Assembly: GCF_988243305.1 (NCBI RefSeq)
Contig: NZ_OZ547136.1
DNA: 64,000 bases
Strand: one strand, 5' to 3'
Shown piece by piece: positions 38,951 through 46,539 of this stretch (position 1 is its first letter; every line of letters starts with the position of its first letter). The translations under genes were made by a program, and so were the position numbers. Under the pieces are notes generated by a model that worked only from the letters and a program-made list of their open reading frames with translations, searched no databases and was not told the DNA's origin.

Positions 38951-39652
38951 GTGGCAGTGAACAGTTTTAACGAAGGGGTGGTTTCACCCCTTTTGTCTTT
39001 CTGGCGTCGATCATTGATGCTGGCAGGCGCTCTGTTTCTCACTGCCTGTAGTCACAACTCTTCACTTCCTCCCTTTACCGCCAGTGGATTTGCTGAAGAC
39101 CAGGGCGCGGTACGCATCTGGCGAAAAGACAGCGGCGATAATGTGCATCTGCTTGCCGTGTTTAGCCCGTGGCGCAGTGGCGATACCACAACGCGAGAGT
39201 ATCGCTGGCAGGGCGATAACCTCACGCTCATCAATATCAATGTTTACAGCAAACCGCCGGTGAACATTCGCGCGCGTTTTGACGATCGCGGCGATCTGAG
39301 CTTTATGCAACGTGAATCCGATGGGGAAAAGCAGCAGCTTTCTAACGACCAAATCGATTTATACCGTTATCGTGCTGATCAGATCCGCCAGATTAGCGAT
39401 GCCTTACGTCAGGGGAGAGTCGTGCTGCGCCAGGGGCGCTGGCATGCGATGGAGCAGACTGTGACCACCTGCGAAGGGCAAACCATTAAACCTGATTTAG
39501 ATTCGCAGGCGATAGCGCATATCGAGCGCCGCCAGAGCCGCTCTTCTGTTGATGTCAGCGTGGCATGGCTGGAAGCGCCCGAAGGTTCGCAATTACTGTT
39601 GGTGGCAAACTCTGATTTCTGTCGCTGGCAACCCAACGAGAAAACGTTCTGA
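38951..39652 (+). CDS. yjaH: YjaH (DUF1481) putative lipoprotein, 233 aa (start uncertain; GTG at 38957 also possible)
   Basis: ORF track; lipobox-like LFLTAC near N-terminus. Confidence 0.75.
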   Translation: MAVNSFNEGVVSPLLSFWRRSLMLAGALFLTACSHNSSLPPFTASGFAEDQGAVRIWRKDSGDNVHLLAVFSPWRSGDTTTREYRWQGDNLTLININVYSKPPVNIRARFDDRGDLSFMQRESDGEKQQLSNDQIDLYRYRADQIRQISDALRQGRVVLRQGRWHAMEQTVTTCEGQTIKPDLDSQAIAHIERRQSRSSVDVSVAWLEAPEGSQLLLVANSDFCRWQPNEKTF

Positions 39653-39653
39653 T

Positions 39654-40079
39654 TTACCAGTGGCCCATACCCATATGACCGCCACCACCGCAGCCGCCGT
39701 AGCCCATGCCCATTCCGGCTCCGCGCGGAATACCCGCTTCAGCCATCGCAATATCCCGTTTCACCCGTAACTCATCTAACGACTGACGCAAAGCCTCCAT
39801 CTCTTTGGCGACCGCGTTAATTTTGCTGCTATCCGGTGGGTTCGCGGCTAACAGGGCATTGTATTCATAACGCTTCGTCACCAGTTGCTGTTGCAGTGCG
39901 CTGCTTTGAGCGTAAAAGTCATTATGGATTTTCTGCCACGCTGTTTGTTGTTCGCTGGTCAAGGGCGCGGCATTTTGTTGCCACATCCCGTGTCCGCCGT
40001 GAGCAAATACAGATGTCGATCCCATCGCCATTGCTGAAAGCGCCATCATCACCAGGGCAATTTTCGTGTTCCGTTTCAT
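39654..40079 (-). CDS. zraP: Zinc-resistance-associated periplasmic protein ZraP, 141 aa
   Basis: ORF track 39654..40220 trimmed to MKRNTKIALVMMALSAMAMG signal peptide; Gly/His/Met-rich C-terminus GMGMGYGGCGGGGHMGMGHW. Confidence 0.85.
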   Translation of the reverse strand: MKRNTKIALVMMALSAMAMGSTSVFAHGGHGMWQQNAAPLTSEQQTAWQKIHNDFYAQSSALQQQLVTKRYEYNALLAANPPDSSKINAVAKEMEALRQSLDELRVKRDIAMAEAGIPRGAGMGMGYGGCGGGGHMGMGHW

Positions 40080-40113
40080 GGTTAATCCTCCAGTGGTTGT
40101 CTTACTTTGGGTA

Positions 40114-40131
40114 TTGCATCTTTCGTGCCAA
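40114..40131 (-). promoter_or_regulatory. sigma54 promoter for zraP (-24 TGGCACG / -12 TGCA)
   Basis: Minus strand reads TTGGCACGAAAGATGCAA (GG-N10-GC spacing). Confidence 0.7.
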
Positions 40132-40172
40132 CAACGAAACGCTGATATGACGGGTAATCTGGCATGATAAAC

Positions 40173-40218
40173 GAGTAAAAATGACTCGCCTGTTGTGGGT
40201 AGCGAGTCATTTTTACTC
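40173..40218. promoter_or_regulatory. ZraR (sigma54 enhancer-binding protein) sites: two perfect 17-bp inverted repeats GAGTAAAAATGACTCGC / GCGAGTCATTTTTACTC
   Basis: Seen in sequence at 40173-40189 and 40202-40218, centred between the divergent sigma54 promoters. Confidence 0.7.
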
Positions 40219-40268
40219 ATTGAAACTTAAGTCTTTGTGTTACAGCGCAGGGTAAGCGCTGCTAAAAG

Positions 40269-40285
40269 ATGGCATGATTTCTGCT
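40269..40285 (+). promoter_or_regulatory. sigma54 promoter for zraSR (-24 TGGCATG / -12 TGCT)
   Basis: aTGGCATGatttcTGCTg with GG-N10-GC spacing. Confidence 0.6.
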
Positions 40286-40325
40286 GTCAAAAAGGGATGA
40301 ACAGGCAAAGAAGAAGATACGTTTT

Positions 40326-41714
40326 ATGCAACGTTCAAAAGACACCTTAGCCAAATGGTTAAGCGCGATCCTCCCCGTGGTCATTGTTGGGCTGGTGGGA
40401 ATGTTTGCGGTAACGGTGATTCGTGATTATGGGCGGGCAAGTGAGGCTGACCGTCAGGCATTACTGGAAAAAGGTAATGTGCTCATTCGCGCTCTGGAGT
40501 CAGGAAGCCGCGTAGGGATGGGGATGCGAATGCACCATGTGCAGCAACAGGCGCTTCTGGAAGAGATGGCAGGCCAGCCTGGGGTGTTGTGGTTTGCGGT
40601 CACCGATGCGCAGGGCATCATCATTCTTCACAGTAACCCCGAAATGGTCGGGCGTGCACTCTATTCTCCTGATGAAATGCAGCAGTTAAAGCCAGAGGAA
40701 AACTCCCGCTGGAGACTGCTTGAGGATGCAGAAAAAACGCCTGCGCTTGAGGTCTATCGTTTGTTCCAGCCAATGTCATTGCCCTGGCGGCATGGTATGC
40801 ACAATATGCCGCGCTGTAACGGCAAAGCTGTGCCACAGGCAGAAGCACAACAGGCTATTTTCATCGCCGTTGACGCCAGCGATCTGGTTGCAACCCAGAG
40901 TGGGGAAAAGCGCAATACCCTGATTATCCTCTTCGCCCTGGCGACGGTCTTGCTGGCAAGCGTGTTGTCATTCTTCTGGTATCGTCGCTATCTGCGCTCG
41001 CGCCAGTTGTTGCAAGATGAAATGAAGCGCAAAGAGAAGCTGGTGGCGCTGGGGCATCTTGCGGCAGGTGTTGCCCACGAAATCCGTAACCCACTTTCCT
41101 CGATTAAAGGGCTGGCGAAATACTTTGCCGAACGCGCGCCAGCCGGGGGAGAAGCGCATCAACTGGCGCAGGTGATGGCGAAAGAAGCCGACCGTTTAAA
41201 CCGCGTGGTAAGCGAGTTGCTGGAACTGGTTAAGCCAACGCATCTGGCTTTGCAGGCGGTGGATCTCAACACGCTGATTAACCACTCATTACAGCTGGTA
41301 AGCCAGGATGCAAACAGCCGGGAGATCCAGTTACGCTTTACTGCCAACGACGCGTTGCCGGAAATTCAGGCCGACCCGGACAGGCTGACTCAGGTCCTGT
41401 TGAATCTCTATCTCAATGCTATTCAGGCGATTGGTCAGCATGGCGTGATTAGCGTGACGGCCAGCGAAAGCGGCGCGGGCGTGAAAATCAGCGTTACCGA
41501 CAGCGGTAAGGGAATTGCGGCAGATCAGCTTGAAGCCATCTTCACCCCGTACTTCACCACCAAAGCCGAAGGCACCGGACTGGGGCTGGCGGTCGTGCAT
41601 AATATTGTTGAACAACACGGTGGTACAATTCAGGTCGCAAGCCAGGAGGGAAAAGGCGCAACGTTCACCCTCTGGCTTCCGGTCAATATTACGCGTAAGG
41701 ACCCACAAGGATGA
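40326..41714 (+). CDS. zraS: Sensor histidine kinase ZraS (HydH), 462 aa as called here
   Basis: ORF track; H-box AHEIRNPLSSI, G-boxes DSGKGI / GTGLGLAV; in-frame ATA-CGT-TTT precedes the ATG (see findings). Confidence 0.85.
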   Translation: MQRSKDTLAKWLSAILPVVIVGLVGMFAVTVIRDYGRASEADRQALLEKGNVLIRALESGSRVGMGMRMHHVQQQALLEEMAGQPGVLWFAVTDAQGIIILHSNPEMVGRALYSPDEMQQLKPEENSRWRLLEDAEKTPALEVYRLFQPMSLPWRHGMHNMPRCNGKAVPQAEAQQAIFIAVDASDLVATQSGEKRNTLIILFALATVLLASVLSFFWYRRYLRSRQLLQDEMKRKEKLVALGHLAAGVAHEIRNPLSSIKGLAKYFAERAPAGGEAHQLAQVMAKEADRLNRVVSELLELVKPTHLALQAVDLNTLINHSLQLVSQDANSREIQLRFTANDALPEIQADPDRLTQVLLNLYLNAIQAIGQHGVISVTASESGAGVKISVTDSGKGIAADQLEAIFTPYFTTKAEGTGLGLAVVHNIVEQHGGTIQVASQEGKGATFTLWLPVNITRKDPQG

Positions 41715-43036
41715 CGCACGATAATATCGATATTCTGGTGGTGGATGATGACATTAGCCACTGCACTATTTTGCAGGCTTTGCTGCGCGGCTGGGGCTAT
41801 AACGTCGCGCTGGCGAACAGCGGGCGACAGGCGCTGGAGCAGGTGCGGGAACAGGTTTTTGATCTTGTGCTTTGCGATGTGCGAATGGCAGAGATGGATG
41901 GCATCGCCACGCTCAAAGAGATCAAAGCGTTAAATCCGGCAATTCCGGTACTGATTATGACCGCGTACTCCAGCGTCGAGACGGCGGTAGAGGCGTTGAA
42001 AACCGGGGCGCTGGATTATCTCATCAAGCCGCTGGATTTCGATAACCTGCAGGCGACGCTGGAAAAGGCGCTCGCACATACGCACAGTGTTGACGCTGAA
42101 ACGCCTGCGGTGTCTGCCAGCCAGTTCAGTATGGTCGGTAAAAGCCCGGCGATGCAACACCTGCTCAGTGAAATCGCCCTCGTCGCGCCATCGGAAGCCA
42201 CGGTGCTGATCCACGGCGATTCCGGCACCGGTAAAGAGCTGGTCGCCAGGGCGATTCACGCCAGTAGCGCACGGAGTGAAAAACCACTGGTAACGCTCAA
42301 CTGTGCGGCACTCAACGAATCCTTGCTGGAATCTGAATTGTTCGGTCACGAAAAAGGGGCGTTTACCGGAGCCGACAAACGGCGGGAAGGGCGCTTTGTT
42401 GAGGCGGACGGCGGCACGCTGTTTCTCGATGAAATTGGCGATATCTCGCCGATGATGCAGGTTCGTCTGCTGCGTGCGATTCAGGAGCGCGAAGTTCAGC
42501 GTGTCGGCAGCAACCAGACCATCTCGGTTGATGTCCGGCTGATTGCGGCGACTCATCGCGATCTTGCCGCAGAGGTGAATGCCGGGCGTTTTCGCCAGGA
42601 TCTCTACTATCGCCTGAACGTGGTGGCGATTGAAGTTCCGTCGCTGCGTCAGCGGCGGGAAGATATTCCTCTGCTGGCAAACCATTTTCTTCAGCGCTTT
42701 GCCGAGCGTAATCGCAAGGCGGTAAAAGGTTTTACGCCCCAGGCGATGGATCTGCTGATTCACTACGACTGGCCGGGAAATATTCGTGAACTGGAAAACG
42801 CGGTGGAACGGGCGGTGGTGCTGCTGACCGGGGAATATATTTCCGAACGCGAGCTGCCGCTGGCGATTGCGAGTACGCCGATCCCGCTGGTACAAAGTCA
42901 GGATATTCAGCCGCTGGTGGAAGTCGAAAAAGAGGTGATTCTTGCGGCACTGGAGAAAACGGGCGGCAACAAAACCGAAGCCGCCCGTCAGTTAGGGATC
43001 ACGCGCAAAACGCTCTTGGCAAAACTGTCGCGTTAG
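41711..43036 (+). CDS. zraR: sigma54-dependent response regulator ZraR (HydG), 441 aa
   Basis: ORF track; receiver domain, AAA+ GAFTGA motif (EKGAFTGA), C-terminal HTH; ATGA overlap with zraS. Confidence 0.9.
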
Positions 43037-44322
43037 TTCTGCTCGCGTTCGATAGCGCGCCAGCCGATATCTTTCCGGCAGAAGCAGTCGTCCCAATGGA
43101 TATCGGTCATTAAGGCATAAGCGCGTTTCTGCGCTTCTGCCACAGTATGACCCAGCGCGGTGACGCACAGTACGCGCCCGCCGCTGGTCACTACCTGCTC
43201 GTCATCCGCCAGTTTCGTGCCCGCGTGGAACACTTTGCCGTCAGACACTTCTTCCAGCGGCAGGCCGTGGATCACATCGCCGGTGCGGTAATCGCCCGGA
43301 TATCCACCCGCAGCCATCACCACGCCGAGAGAAGCGCGTTCATCCCACTCGGACGTTTTCTCGTCAAGCGTACCTTCACAGGCTGCCAGGCAGAGCTCAA
43401 CCAGATCGGACTTCATGCGCAGCATAATCGGCTGGGTTTCCGGATCGCCAAAGCGGCAGTTAAATTCGATAACCTTCGGATTGCCCTGTTTGTCGATCAT
43501 CAGGCCCGCGTAGAGAAAACCAGTGTAGGTGTTGCCTTCCGCTGCCATACCTTTCACGGTTGGCCAGATGATACGTTCCATGGTGCGCTGATGAACCCCA
43601 TCGGTCACCACTGGCGCAGGGGAGTAAGCCCCCATCCCGCCGGTGTTCGGTCCGGTATCTTTATCACCTACGCGTTTGTGGTCCTGACTGGTGGCCATCG
43701 GCAGCACATGCTCGCCGTCCACCATCACGATAAAGCTCGCTTCTTCGCCGTCGAGGAACTCTTCGATAACAATGCGATGACCCGCATCGCCAAAAGCGTT
43801 GCCCGCCAGCATATCGTGAACAGCCGCTTCGGCTTCTTCCAGCGTCATCGCGACGATAACGCCTTTACCCGCTGCCAGACCGTCAGCTTTAATGACGATC
43901 GGCGCGCCTTTCTCACGCAGATACGCCAGCGCAGGTTCTACCTCGGTGAAGTTCTGGTATTCCGCCGTAGGGATCTGATGGCGGGCCAGGAAATCCTTGG
44001 TAAACGCTTTCGAGCCTTCCAGCTGCGCGGCACCTGCGGTTGGGCCGAAGATTTTCAGCCCGGCGGCGCGGAAGGTATCCACCACGCCTTTCACCAGCGG
44101 CGCTTCCGGGCCGACGATGGTTAGATCGATCTTTTCGTTTTGCGCGAAATCCAGCAGCGCCGGGATATCGGTTACGCCGATAGCGACGTTTTGCAGTGCA
44201 GGCTCCAGCGCAGTGCCTGCGTTACCCGGAGCAACAAAAACAGTTTCAACCAGCGGCGACTGGGCCGCTTTCCAGGCCAGCGCGTGCTCGCGCCCGCCGT
44301 TACCAATCACTAATACTTTCAT
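43033..44322 (-). CDS. purD: Phosphoribosylamine-glycine ligase PurD, 429 aa
   Basis: ORF track; recognised product. Confidence 0.9.
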   Translation of the reverse strand: MKVLVIGNGGREHALAWKAAQSPLVETVFVAPGNAGTALEPALQNVAIGVTDIPALLDFAQNEKIDLTIVGPEAPLVKGVVDTFRAAGLKIFGPTAGAAQLEGSKAFTKDFLARHQIPTAEYQNFTEVEPALAYLREKGAPIVIKADGLAAGKGVIVAMTLEEAEAAVHDMLAGNAFGDAGHRIVIEEFLDGEEASFIVMVDGEHVLPMATSQDHKRVGDKDTGPNTGGMGAYSPAPVVTDGVHQRTMERIIWPTVKGMAAEGNTYTGFLYAGLMIDKQGNPKVIEFNCRFGDPETQPIMLRMKSDLVELCLAACEGTLDEKTSEWDERASLGVVMAAGGYPGDYRTGDVIHGLPLEEVSDGKVFHAGTKLADDEQVVTSGGRVLCVTALGHTVAEAQKRAYALMTDIHWDDCFCRKDIGWRAIEREQN

Positions 44323-44333
44323 CTATTGCTCCA

Positions 44334-45923
44334 TTAATGGCGGAAGTGGCGCATGTCGGTGAAGAGCATTGCAATACCGTGCTCGTCGGCGGCGGCAATC
44401 ACTTCGTCATCACGGATAGAACCGCCAGGCTGGATTACGCAGGTCACGCCCGCAGCGGCGGCGGCATCAATACCGTCGCGGAACGGGAAGAACGCGTCAG
44501 AAGCCATCGAGGAACCTTTCACTTCCAGACCTTCATCGGCAGCTTTAATACCGGCGATTTTTGCGGAGTACACGCGGCTCATCTGGCCCGCGCCAATCCC
44601 GATGGTCATATTGTTTTTGGCATAGACGATAGCATTGGATTTCACGAACTTCGCCACTTTCCAGCAGAACAGCGCATCACGCAGTTCCTGTTCGGTCGGC
44701 TGACGTTTGGTGACGACGCGCAGTTCTTCTGCACCGACCATCCCCAGGTCTCGATCCTGAACCAGCAGACCGCCGTTCACGCGTTTGAAATCAAGGCCCG
44801 GAACACGCTCGCCCCACTGACCGCAGGTCAGGACGCGCACGTTCTGTTTGGCGGCGGTGATTTTCAGGGCTTCTTCGCTGGCGGATGGCGCAATGATCAC
44901 TTCAACAAACTGACGAGAAATGATGGCCTGTGCGGTTTCCGCATCCAGCTCGCGGTTAAAGGCAATGATGCCGCCGAATGCGGAGGTCGGGTCGGTTTTG
45001 TACGCGCGATCGTAAGCATCAAGAATGGAATGGCCGATAGCCACGCCGCAAGGGTTGGCGTGCTTCACAATCACACATGCCGGCTCGGCGAACTCTTTCA
45101 CGCACTCCAGCGCCGCATCGGTGTCGGCGATGTTGTTATAAGAGAGGGCTTTACCCTGAACCTGGGTTGCGGTAGCAACGGAGGCTTCTTTCACATTCTC
45201 TTCTATATAGAAGGCAGCCTGCTGGTGGCTGTTCTCGCCGTAACGCATATCCTGCTTCTTAATGAAGTTCAGGTTCAGCGTGCGTGGGAAGCGACCGGCG
45301 GCTTCTTTGCTTTCACCGTGGTAAGCCGGAACCATGCTGCCGAAGTAGTTGGCAATCATGCTGTCGTAGGCGGCGGTGTGTTCGAAGGCTTTGATGGCGA
45401 GGTCGAAACGGGTTGCAAGCGTCAGCGATCCTTCGTTGGCATCCATCTCTTTAATAATGGCGTCGTAGTCGCTGCTCTTCACCACGATGGCGACATCTTT
45501 ATGGTTCTTGGCGGCGGAGCGCACCATCGTTGGGCCGCCGATATCGATGTTCTCAACCGCATCTTCCAGCGAGCATCCTTCACGGGCAACGGTCTGGGCG
45601 AACGGATACAGGTTAACAACCACCATATCGATAGGCTGGATCTGGTGTTCTTCCATAATGGCATCGTCCTGGCCGCGACGGCCCAGAATGCCACCATGTA
45701 CTTTCGGATGCAGGGTCTTCACGCGTCCATCCATCATCTCCGGGAAACCGGTGTAATCGGAAACTTCGGTTACCGGCAGACCTTTTTCTGCTAACAGACG
45801 GGCTGTGCCCCCTGTAGACAGCAGCTCCACACCGCGTGCGGAAAGTGCCTGGGCGAATTCGACGATACCGGCTTTGTCAGAAACACTGAGCAGAGCGCGG
45901 CGGACTGGACGACGTTGTTGCAT
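44334..45923 (-). CDS. purH: Bifunctional AICAR transformylase / IMP cyclohydrolase PurH, 529 aa
   Basis: ORF track; recognised product. Confidence 0.9.
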
Positions 45924-46030
45924 GGTAAATCCCCTGGATTTGACTATTACAGAGAGCGTTAGCTGAATTTTTCGCGAAAAACTCAGCTAACGCCCCTAAC
46001 GGGGCATCCTTATTTTTCGTCCGCATTGTA

Positions 46031-46046
46031 ACGAAAACGTTTGCGC
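46031..46046 (-). promoter_or_regulatory. PurR operator (PUR box) of purHD
   Basis: Minus strand reads GCGCAAACGTTTTCGT, matching PUR-box consensus aCGCAAACGTTTTCnT, ~110 bp upstream of purH start. Confidence 0.65.
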
Positions 46047-46217
46047 AACGCTCGCGAATTTTTCTCTTTCAATGGTGATCACAATTTTGGCAGTGTTTAC
46101 CGTGGGAAAAATACAGAAATTACATTGATGATTGTGGATAACTCTGTGCGTAAAAAGGTATAAAGCGGGGTTTTGCTGGGGAATGCAGCAGTCAGTCATT
46201 TTTCTGCAATTTTTCTA

Positions 46218-46245
46218 TTGCGGCCTGCGGAGAACTCCCTATAAT
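46218..46245 (+). promoter_or_regulatory. rrnE P1 promoter (-35 TTGCGG, 16-bp spacer, -10 TATAAT)
   Basis: ctaTTGCGGcctgcggagaactcccTATAATgcgcc. Confidence 0.7.
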
Positions 46246-46326
46246 GCGCCTCCATCGACACGGCGGATGTGAATCACTTCACACAAACAGCCGGTTCGGT
46301 TGAAGAGAAAAATCCTGAAATTCAGG

Positions 46327-46354
46327 GTTGACTCTGAAAGAGGAAAGCGTAGTA
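46327..46354 (+). promoter_or_regulatory. rrnE P2 promoter (-35 TTGACT, 16-bp spacer, -10 TAGTAT)
   Basis: ggTTGACTctgaaagaggaaagcgTAGTATacgcc. Confidence 0.6.
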
Positions 46355-46539
46355 TACGCCACCTCGCGACAGTGAGCTGAAAGCCGCGTCGCAACTGCTC
46401 TTTAACAATTTATCAGACAATCTGTGTGGGCACTCGAAGATACGGATTCTTGACGTCGCAAGACGAAAAATGAATACCAAGTCTCAAGAGTGAACACGTA
46501 ATTCATTACGAAGTTTAATTCTTTGAGCATCAAACTTTT

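What the first reader, a model, noticed from the sequence alone, without database searches (positions are those of the whole stretch)
43033..43036. Convergent stop-codon sharing between zraR and purD
The tetranucleotide TTAG at 43033-43036 encodes the purD stop (TAA on the minus strand, 43033-43035) and the zraR stop (TAG on the plus strand, 43034-43036), with no intergenic DNA. Neither gene has room for its own terminator, so transcripts must extend into the antisense of the partner, giving potential mutual transcriptional interference between zinc-stress and purine-biosynthesis units.
Basis: seen in the sequence. Interest (0 to 1): 0.2.

Follow-up and report, generated by a model that had tools for sequence, protein, structure and literature searches.

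The report
zraR–purD four-base stop-codon overlap
Two E. coli genes that face each other end on the same four bases, which is an ordinary and already annotated arrangement; the one added point is that the purine operon appears to keep its transcription stop signal inside the coding sequence of its neighbour.

Summary
Window 43033-43036 is TTAG. It holds the zraR stop (TAG, + strand) and the purD stop (TAA, - strand). Both ORFs match their curated family models end to end.

It is not new. K-12 RefSeq annotates the same 4-nt overlap. The junction is present in 5420 of 5426 complete E. coli genomes. YTAR tetramers are the documented modal class of convergent overlaps, and zraR-purD is listed in a 2025 catalogue of E. 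coli excludons.

Comparison of about 90 loci shows that zraP-zraSR sits as a cassette in the old yjaH/purD spacer. In relatives without zra, that spacer carries a strong terminator hairpin.

"No room for a terminator" is only half right. At 45-81 nt past the purD stop, inside zraR codons 415-426, the - strand has an 8-9 bp GC stem followed by a U tract. Its stem codons are invariant at synonymous sites in all 12 orthologues tested (P about 7e-6). This is probably the purHD intrinsic terminator.

zraSR has no such element. Published bicyclomycin data place a Rho termination region about 266 nt into antisense purD.

Transcripts therefore overlap over a bounded stretch. Regulatory interference between the two units remains untested. 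Interest is low.

The parts
41711..43036 (+). zraR CDS (441 aa, sigma-54-dependent response regulator), stop TAG at 43034-43036
   Evidence: ORF list. NF007689 ZraR equivalog, 994 bits, 1-441 of 441. Annotated as zraR in E. coli RefSeq records.
43033..44322 (-). purD CDS (429 aa, phosphoribosylamine-glycine ligase), stop TAA, the reverse complement of 43033-43035. It is the last gene of purHD.
   Evidence: ORF list. TIGR00877, 628 bits, 1-425 of 425. purH lies upstream at 44334-45923.
43033..43036 (.). TTAG, the 4-nt tail-to-tail overlap that holds both stop codons
   Evidence: Sequence. Identical in K-12. TTAG is present in 13 of 13 zra-bearing loci from Escherichia, Citrobacter, Kluyvera, Klebsiella, Phytobacter and Kosakonia.
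42952..42988 (-). Candidate intrinsic terminator of purHD embedded in zraR codons 415-426 ([12 protein letters not shown]). The 5' arm is 42988-42980, the loop 42979-42968, the 3' arm 42967-42959 and the U tract 42958-42952 (UUUCUCC).
   Evidence: Custom hairpin plus T-tail scan. RNAfold gives -22.7 kcal/mol, z = -2.3. Stem and U tract are kept in all orthologues. The five 4-fold stem codons are all codon-invariant, against 12 of 107 such columns in the whole gene, P = 7.5e-6. No mapped RNA 3' end was found.
43137..43302 (+). Zone where zraSR transcripts run antisense to purD and are ended by Rho. A C-rich, G-poor stretch spans 43137-43254. Window 43302 corresponds to K-12 4204911.
   Evidence: C/G profile. 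PMC7815308 supplementary file 2: at 4204911 (+), 'antisense purD', read counts without BCM are 74 upstream and 17 downstream, and with BCM 172 and 169; Rho score 4.28, P = 5.7e-8. The coordinate transfer assumes collinearity; purD is 1290 nt in both.
39650..39656 (.). The other end of the zra cassette. The yjaH stop TGA (39650-39652, +) and the zraP stop TAA (reverse complement of 39654-39656) are separated by 1 nt.
   Evidence: Sequence. K-12 annotation. The yjaH/zraP gap is 1-12 nt in seven other genera or species.

Best explanation
The TTAG is a genuine but ordinary 4-nt tail-to-tail overlap. It most likely results from genome compaction and is not a regulatory device.

In Enterobacterales without zra, purD faces yjaH across a 33-106 nt spacer that carries a strong, often bidirectional, terminator hairpin. 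In Escherichia, Citrobacter, Kluyvera, Klebsiella, Phytobacter and Kosakonia, the zraP-zraSR cassette occupies that spacer. Both of its ends abut the neighbours with essentially no DNA left: 1-12 nt at yjaH/zraP and -4 nt at zraR/purD. YTAR is the tightest packing that leaves both proteins unchanged, because it places a stop codon on each strand.

Termination has moved into the partner's coding sequence, and the two sides differ.

(a) purHD transcripts most likely end at an intrinsic terminator written into zraR codons 415-426. On the - strand this is an 8-9 bp GC stem followed by UUUUCUCC, 45-81 nt after the purD stop. It is maintained by selection at synonymous sites. This step is inferred from sequence and conservation.

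(b) zraSR transcripts have no such element. They run antisense into purD until Rho stops them around +266 nt. This step is shown in published bicyclomycin data for K-12.

The sense/antisense overlap is therefore real but limited to roughly 80 nt plus about 270 nt. Any interference would mainly be zraSR acting on the purD 3' end, and that is inferred, not shown.
For: The overlap and gene ends are real.

The junction is present in 5420 of 5426 complete E. coli genomes.

Cassette history: 29 zra-less species have yjaG-hupA-yjaH facing purD, whereas zra-bearing species have yjaH, zraP, zraS and zraR facing purD. All 19 ancestral spacers that I folded form hairpins of -15 to -43 kcal/mol, several flanked by A and T runs.

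Hairpin: found by scan. It folds at -22.7 kcal/mol with z = -2.3. Stems are unchanged in 13 loci, while the loop codon T422 takes all four synonymous forms. Five of the 12 codon-invariant 4-fold columns of the whole gene are the stem codons, P = 7.5e-6. Only the - strand has a U tract after the stem. purD shows no comparable synonymous constraint near its 3' end.

Rho: PMC7815308 supplementary file 2 has an entry at 4204911 (+), and a C-rich, G-poor region lies upstream of it. That study reported no Rho region on the - strand within zraR or zraS.

Generality: PMC2174442.
Against: No mapped RNA 3' end supports the embedded terminator. The curated Term-seq lists of PMC7815308 have nothing at K-12 42045xx-42046xx and no entry naming zraR. 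That dataset listed a primary end for only one (purN) of six other purine genes queried (purN, purK, purC, purL, purA, guaA), so this absence is weak evidence.

The loop is 12 nt, longer than typical, and the E. coli U tract is interrupted (UUUUCUCC).

The general consensus scan found no excess of terminator-like sites (10 found against 8.2 +/- 3.2 in shuffles).

The 13 sequences are not phylogenetically independent.

The direction of the cassette event (gain or loss) is inferred from outgroups only.

Salmonella was not sampled.
Confidence: 0.75

Rival explanations
1. The overlap is a selected excludon. Convergent transcription makes zinc-stress signalling (zraSR) and purine synthesis (purHD) repress each other through RNA polymerase collision and RNase III cleavage of the sense/antisense duplex.
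For: With no intergenic DNA, transcripts must overlap. zraR-purD is listed among MG1655 convergent excludons found in at least 50% of 58 transcriptomes. TTAG and the adjacency are conserved across at least six genera.
Against: The excludon list rests on read coverage only, and any pair with overlapping CDSs qualifies automatically. Termination signals limit the overlap: a hairpin about 80 nt into zraR and Rho at about +266 in purD. The same tightness at the other cassette end, yjaH/zraP, points to general compaction. K. aerogenes has an 11-nt overlap instead, and rare E. coli stop-loss alleles exist, so the exact geometry is not fixed. I found no expression data showing reciprocity.
Confidence: 0.12
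2. The conserved hairpin in zraR codons 417-426 is not a terminator. It would serve another role, such as structure in the zraSR mRNA or a DNA-level signal, and purHD would be ended by Rho like zraSR.
For: The + strand RNA can also fold the stem (-20.1 kcal/mol). No purHD 3' end has been mapped at the site. C-rich, G-poor stretches that could load Rho lie at +41-138 and +161-278 on the - strand.
Against: Only the - strand has a U tract directly after the stem. On the + strand the hairpin lies 48 nt before the zraR stop, so it cannot terminate or protect a complete zraR message. GGT and GCT would keep G-U pairs in the + strand RNA and are common codons, yet they never occur in 13 sequences. One of the two stem variants seen (CGT to CGC in L004) keeps a G-U pair only on the - strand; the other (CGG in Kosakonia) pairs on neither strand. 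No bicyclomycin-sensitive region was reported on the - strand, although one was detected on the weakly expressed + strand.
Confidence: 0.25
3. The overlap is an annotation artefact, and one of the two proteins actually ends elsewhere.
For: None beyond the general fact that ORF ends can be miscalled.
Against: Stop codons are unambiguous, unlike start codons. Both proteins match curated equivalog models to their last positions. Of 238 ZraR cluster representatives, 233 end at the same ...AK[LI][SL]R. PurD tails of the same length occur in zra-less species.
Confidence: 0.01

Closest known systems
Four-nucleotide convergent (tail-to-tail) gene overlaps, YTAR class (Lillo and Krakauer 2007, PMC2174442)
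   Same: The two CDSs converge and share CTAA, TTAA, CTAG or TTAG, so each strand reads a stop. This is the commonest convergent overlap length. E. coli has dozens of convergent overlaps.
   Different: Nothing differs at the level of the overlap itself. This is a plain member of the class.
Convergent excludons (overlapping 3' transcripts of neighbouring genes; ExcludonFinder, PMC12288877)
   Same: The transcripts of the two units necessarily overlap, and the pair is in the published MG1655 list.
   Different: Reciprocal expression and RNase III dependence, which give an excludon its function, have not been shown for this pair. The overlap is bounded by a probable intrinsic terminator on one side and by Rho on the other.
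Rho-independent terminators located inside the coding sequence of a convergent partner (noted for 23 of 116 E. coli genes in convergent overlaps, PMC2174442)
   Same: A GC-rich hairpin plus U tract for one gene is encoded within the other gene's ORF.
   Different: Here the element is shown to be under synonymous-site constraint across genera, and it lies in the codons of the helix-turn-helix region (PF02954 HTH_8 domain listed for ZraR). Whether it is one of the previously predicted cases could not be checked.
Bidirectional intrinsic terminators between convergent genes (Ju et al. 2019; recalled from memory, paper not held in the library)
   Same: zra-less relatives have exactly this between yjaH and purD, for example GCAAAAGGGGGCACCTGGTGCCCCCTTTTC in Pantoea L022.
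   Different: In the window the element is unidirectional. The U tract is on the purHD strand only, and the zraSR strand relies on Rho.

Membership tests
4-nt convergent gene overlap (YTAR class) | Two protein-coding genes on opposite strands with their 3' ends facing | tested here: met
   ZraR and PurD equivalog matches on opposite strands.
4-nt convergent gene overlap (YTAR class) | Exactly four shared bases of the form YTAR that contain both stop codons | tested here: met
   TTAG at 43033-43036 holds TAG (+) and TAA (-).
4-nt convergent gene overlap (YTAR class) | Both ORF ends are the natural protein ends, not miscalls | tested here: met
   Model coverage reaches the last positions. The ends are conserved in orthologues.
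Convergent excludon | Overlapping transcripts from the two units detected in vivo | not testable with these tools
   Literature only: listed in PMC12288877 Table 1, and + strand reads run antisense to purD in PMC7815308.
Convergent excludon | Mutually exclusive or reciprocal expression of the two units | not tested
   No expression data were available, and literature searches found none.
Convergent excludon | RNase III processing of the sense/antisense duplex | not tested
   No data.
Intrinsic (Rho-independent) terminator, for purHD | Stable GC-rich hairpin downstream of the last stop codon of the operon | tested here: met
   An 8-9 bp stem, -18 to -20 kcal/mol for the hairpin alone, at +45 to +74 after the purD stop.
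Intrinsic (Rho-independent) terminator, for purHD | U-rich tract immediately 3' of the stem | tested here: met
   UUUUCUCC in E. coli and UUUUUUC in Kluyvera and Citrobacter. The T score is 3.5-4.2 and the d score is positive, using a formula recalled from memory.
Intrinsic (Rho-independent) terminator, for purHD | Short loop (usually 3-8 nt) | tested here: not met
   The loop is 12 nt with a possible 2-bp inner helix. This is why the standard scan missed it. A short loop is typical, not strictly defining.
Intrinsic (Rho-independent) terminator, for purHD | RNA 3' ends map to the U tract, independently of Rho | tested here: inconclusive
   PMC7815308 lists no 3' end there. That dataset lists a primary end for only one (purN) of six other purine genes queried. 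Other datasets were not held or had no entry.
Rho-dependent terminator, for zraSR | Read-through increases when Rho is inhibited | not testable with these tools
   Literature: Rho score 4.28, P = 5.7e-8 at K-12 4204911 (+).
Rho-dependent terminator, for zraSR | Untranslated, C-rich and G-poor RNA upstream of the termination zone | tested here: met
   C/G ratio of 1.55-1.82 at +101 to +218 after the zraR stop.
Bidirectional intrinsic terminator | One hairpin flanked by an A tract and a U tract, so that it terminates both convergent units | tested here: not met
   On the + strand the stem is followed by CAGUUAGGG, with no U tract. The feature is met in the yjaH/purD spacers of zra-less relatives.

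The most novel reading that the evidence does not exclude
The purHD terminator is encoded within the codons of ZraR's C-terminal DNA-binding region. Gly-Gly as GGCGGC is the reverse complement of Ala-Ala as GCCGCC. The element has been held by purifying selection at synonymous sites since the zra cassette replaced the ancestral intergenic terminator. This gives an asymmetric pair: intrinsic termination for purHD and Rho termination for zraSR. In such a pair only zraSR induction could send antisense RNA over purD.
Probability: 0.5. Interest if true: 0.3.

Novelty: already known. Interest (0 to 1): 0.13.

Why it matters
The overlap itself matters little. It is in the reference annotation, belongs to the commonest class of convergent overlaps, and has already been catalogued as a transcript-overlap pair.

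The modest added value is a clear example of how a gene cassette that removes an intergenic terminator is accommodated. One neighbour's terminator is re-encoded inside the newcomer's ORF and constrains its synonymous sites. The newcomer itself is left to Rho.

This is relevant to people who recode or refactor E. coli genes, because synonymous changes in zraR codons 417-426 could alter the 3' end of purHD. It is also relevant to interpreting synonymous-site conservation.

Tried and rejected
1. The general promoter/terminator scan of 40000-46500 found 10 terminator-like sites against 8.2 +/- 3.2 in shuffles. It showed no enrichment and missed the embedded hairpin because its loop limit is 8 nt.

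2. The + strand candidates at +321 (-8.2 kcal/mol) and +622 after the zraR stop are weak and were not pursued.

3. Rfam gave no hit at E <= 1 in 42300-43700.

4. I searched for mapped purHD or zraSR 3' ends.
- PMC7815308 gave only the Rho region at 4204911 (+).
- Dar and Sorek 2018, Conway 2014 and ExcludonFinder have no supplements held.
- Yan 2018 and the Nanopore preprint have no purD or zraR entry.
- Ju 2019, Peters 2012 and Lalanne 2018 are not held.

5. A literature search for 'purHD' plus 'terminator' returned nothing relevant.

6. I tested whether the insertion shortened PurD and so created the shared stop. This is rejected. PurD tails of the same length (AIEREQN, AIAREQQ) occur in zra-less Mangrovibacter and Superficieibacter.

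7. The first ZraR homologue search returned only Escherichia. A second search from the Kluyvera protein was needed to reach other genera. Salmonella was never sampled.

8. A similar synonymous-constraint scan of purD found no cluster near its 3' end.

Full report
**1. Observation**

Window 43030-43039 reads gcgTTAGttc. The + strand ORF 41711..43036 ends in TAG at 43034-43036. The - strand ORF 43033..44322 ends in TAA, the reverse complement of 43033-43035.

The + ORF is ZraR (NF007689 equivalog, 994 bits, 1-441 of 441). The - ORF is PurD (TIGR00877, 628 bits, 1-425 of 425). ZraS lies upstream of zraR and PurH upstream of purD. The ends are therefore natural protein ends.

The window is E. coli. 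A 1.1-kb probe across the junction matches 5420 of 5426 complete genomes, best at 99.5%. A 121-nt probe gives the same count, with at least 95% identity in 5416.

**2. Already annotated and of a known class**

K-12 RefSeq has zraR at 4203320-4204645 and purD at complement 4204642-4205931. The junction is base-for-base the same as in the window.

Lillo and Krakauer (PMC2174442) describe the discontinuity at overlap length 4 for convergent genes. They name CTAA, TTAA, CTAG and TTAG as the tetramers that end two genes on opposite strands.
- Of 1890 convergent overlaps in 58 genomes, 1218 are 5 nt or longer.
- E. coli had 58 convergent overlaps.
- 23 of the 116 genes involved had a predicted Rho-independent terminator, necessarily inside the partner's ORF.

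ExcludonFinder (PMC12288877) lists zraR-purD, and also yjaH-zraP, among 165 convergent excludons of MG1655. Its criterion is read coverage only.

In the 50 kb of K-12 around the site, the convergent junctions have spacers of 39, 28, 1, 1 and -4 nt. The overlap is therefore real but is not more than the genome's ordinary compaction produces.

**3. How the junction arose (inference from comparison)**

A scan of species-representative genomes with PurD gave 80 loci.
- zraR is convergent to purD in E. coli, E. albertii, Kluyvera genomosp. 1 and Citrobacter werkmanii.
- In 29 other Enterobacterales the neighbour is yjaH, in the order yjaG-hupA-yjaH facing purD-purH. These include Enterobacter, Leclercia, Pseudocitrobacter, Cedecea, Pantoea, Erwinia, Yersinia, Serratia, Rahnella and Providencia.

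Seven further ZraR orthologues all show yjaH, zraP, zraS and zraR facing purD-purH. They come from Klebsiella grimontii, K. aerogenes, Phytobacter diazotrophicus, Kosakonia arachidis, Kluyvera intermedia, a contig labelled E. hormaechei, and an unclassified Enterobacteriaceae.

zraP-zraSR is thus a cassette lying in the former yjaH/purD spacer. Both of its ends are tight.
- The yjaH/zraP gap is 1 nt in the window and 1-12 nt elsewhere.
- zraR/purD overlap by 4 nt everywhere except K. aerogenes, where a different PurD tail gives 11 nt.

The 19 ancestral yjaH/purD spacers that I folded (33-106 nt) all contain a strong hairpin (-15 to -43 kcal/mol). Several are flanked by A and T runs in the form of a bidirectional terminator, for example GCAAAAGGGGGCACCTGGTGCCCCCTTTTC. 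That element is absent from zra-bearing genomes.

PurD was not truncated by the event, because tails of the same length occur in zra-less species.

**4. Where the transcripts end**

*purHD (- strand).* The consensus scan found no excess of terminators. A scan allowing longer loops found this element on the - strand at window 42988-42952, which is +45 to +81 after the purD stop: ACGGGCGGC-uucgguuuuguu-GCCGCCCGU followed by UUUCUCC.
- It folds at -22.7 kcal/mol, z = -2.3.
- It lies in zraR codons 415-426 ([12 protein letters not shown]).
- The stem exists because Gly-Gly is written GGCGGC and Ala-Ala GCCGCC.
- Stem and U tract are present in all 13 zra-bearing loci. Kluyvera and Citrobacter have UUUUUUC.

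*Conservation test.* The hairpin was defined on the window alone and then tested on orthologues.
- Among 12 full-length zraR genes there are 107 columns with a conserved Gly, Ala, Thr, Pro or Val.
- Only 12 of these columns are codon-invariant.
- Five of those 12 are T417 ACG, G418 GGC, G419 GGC, A424 GCC and A425 GCC. The hypergeometric P is 7.5e-6.
- The loop codon T422 takes all four synonymous forms.
- Each synonymous stem site pairs with a non-synonymous site, so compensatory changes are impossible and invariance is the expected signature.
- GGT and GCT would preserve G-U pairs in the + strand RNA but not in the - strand RNA, and they never occur. One of the two stem variants seen (CGT to CGC in L004) preserves a G-U pair only on the - strand; the other (CGG in Kosakonia) pairs on neither strand.
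- Only the - strand has a U tract after the stem.

I therefore read the element as the purHD intrinsic terminator, with probability about 0.6. No mapped 3' end supports it. PMC7815308 lists none at K-12 42045xx-42046xx and has no entry naming zraR. However, that dataset lists a primary end for only one (purN) of six other purine genes queried.

*zraSR (+ strand).* There is no credible hairpin plus U tract within 600 nt of the zraR stop. purD shows no cluster of synonymous constraint near its 3' end: 12 of 162 columns are invariant, none after codon 379.

PMC7815308 supplementary file 2 (DirectRNA-seq with and without bicyclomycin) reports a Rho termination region at 4204911 (+), classed 'antisense purD'.
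- Read counts without BCM are 74 upstream and 17 downstream. With BCM they are 172 and 169.
- The Rho score is 4.28 and P = 5.7e-8.
- The position is 266 nt past the zraR stop, which corresponds to window about 43302.
- A C-rich, G-poor stretch lies at +101 to +218.

The same table has a stronger region at 4201402 (+), antisense to zraP and 141 nt past the yjaH stop (score 17.2).

**5. Interpretation**

purHD very probably has one inside zraR.

The expected duplex-forming region is bounded: about 80 nt of the zraR 3' end and about 270 nt of the purD 3' end. It is also asymmetric. Functional interference is possible, mainly zraSR induction acting on purD, but nothing I could find demonstrates it.

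Three observations favour compaction over a selected regulatory design:
- the same tightness at the other cassette end;
- the 11-nt variant in K. aerogenes;
- rare E. coli stop-loss alleles of 456 and 469 aa.

**6. Verdict**

The feature is already known and ordinary. The embedded, synonymously constrained terminator is a small addition of a known kind. Interest is low.

**Limits**
- The 13 junction sequences are not independent.
- Salmonella was not sampled.
- The d-score formula is recalled from memory.
- The comparison with bidirectional terminators (Ju et al. 2019) rests on my own knowledge, because the paper was not held.

Noticed in passing
window 39650-39656: The yjaH stop (TGA) and the zraP stop (TAA on the - strand) are separated by a single base, so the other end of the zra cassette is as tight as the zraR/purD end. 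PMC7815308 reports a strong Rho termination region at K-12 4201402 (+), 141 nt past the yjaH stop and antisense to zraP (score 17.2).
   Followed up: partly
window 40317-40328: The position corresponding to the zraS start annotated in K-12 and NRZ14408 (zraS 1398 nt) reads ATA in the window. The first in-frame start codon is the ATG at 40326, so ZraS here would be 3 residues shorter (462 aa).
   Followed up: no
window 40114-40130 (- strand) and 40270-40285 (+ strand): Sigma-54-type -24/-12 elements are visible by eye in the zraP/zraS divergent intergenic region: TGGCACGAAAGATGCAA facing zraP and TGGCATGATTTCTGCT facing zraS. This fits the sigma-54 dependence of the system. No scan was run.
   Followed up: no
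window 43033-43036 and orthologous loci L002-L006, L030, L083-L089: All four YTAR tetramers would be synonymous here (CGY Arg for ZraR, AAY Asn for PurD). Yet TTAG and the last ZraR codon CGT are invariant in 13 of 13 sequences, although about 89% of 4-fold sites vary. One possibility is that the more highly expressed purD keeps the preferred TAA stop and AAC codon, which leaves zraR with the rare TAG. This is unexplained and untested.
   Followed up: partly
L084 3822-3832 (Klebsiella aerogenes): purD is called at 431 aa with tail ...AREKTNG and a TGA stop inside the last zraR codons. This gives an 11-nt overlap instead of 4.
   Followed up: partly
L003 3844-3846 (Escherichia albertii NBRC 107761): zraR matches in two tblastn pieces (residues 1-262 and 263-441) offset by one base. 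This means a frameshift or a draft-assembly error. Other E. albertii ZraR proteins in the database are intact at 441 aa.
   Followed up: no
ZraR protein clusters P0004-P0061 (E. coli): Many in-frame length variants of ZraR circulate in E. coli. A 437-aa allele lacking 4 residues near position 40 is seen on 88 and 188 contigs. There are also short tandem duplications (DYLIKPL x2, LIH x2, an 18-aa repeat). Five singleton stop-loss alleles (TAG to CAG, TAY, TGG or TCG) extend ZraR by 15 or 28 residues into antisense purD.
   Followed up: partly
L010, L016, L021 (downstream of purD): In Phytobacter massiliensis, Pluralibacter gergoviae and Klebsiella sp. BIGb0407, the gene convergent to purD is neither yjaH nor zraR. 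Unrelated ORFs lie 33-91 nt away, so the purD 3' flank is a recurrent rearrangement or insertion point. Their functions were not determined.
   Followed up: no
L008, L014, L017 (yjaH/purD spacers): Some ancestral spacers carry REP-like palindromes (for example GCCGGATAAGCGTTAGCGTAATCCGGC) in addition to, or in place of, a simple terminator hairpin.
   Followed up: no
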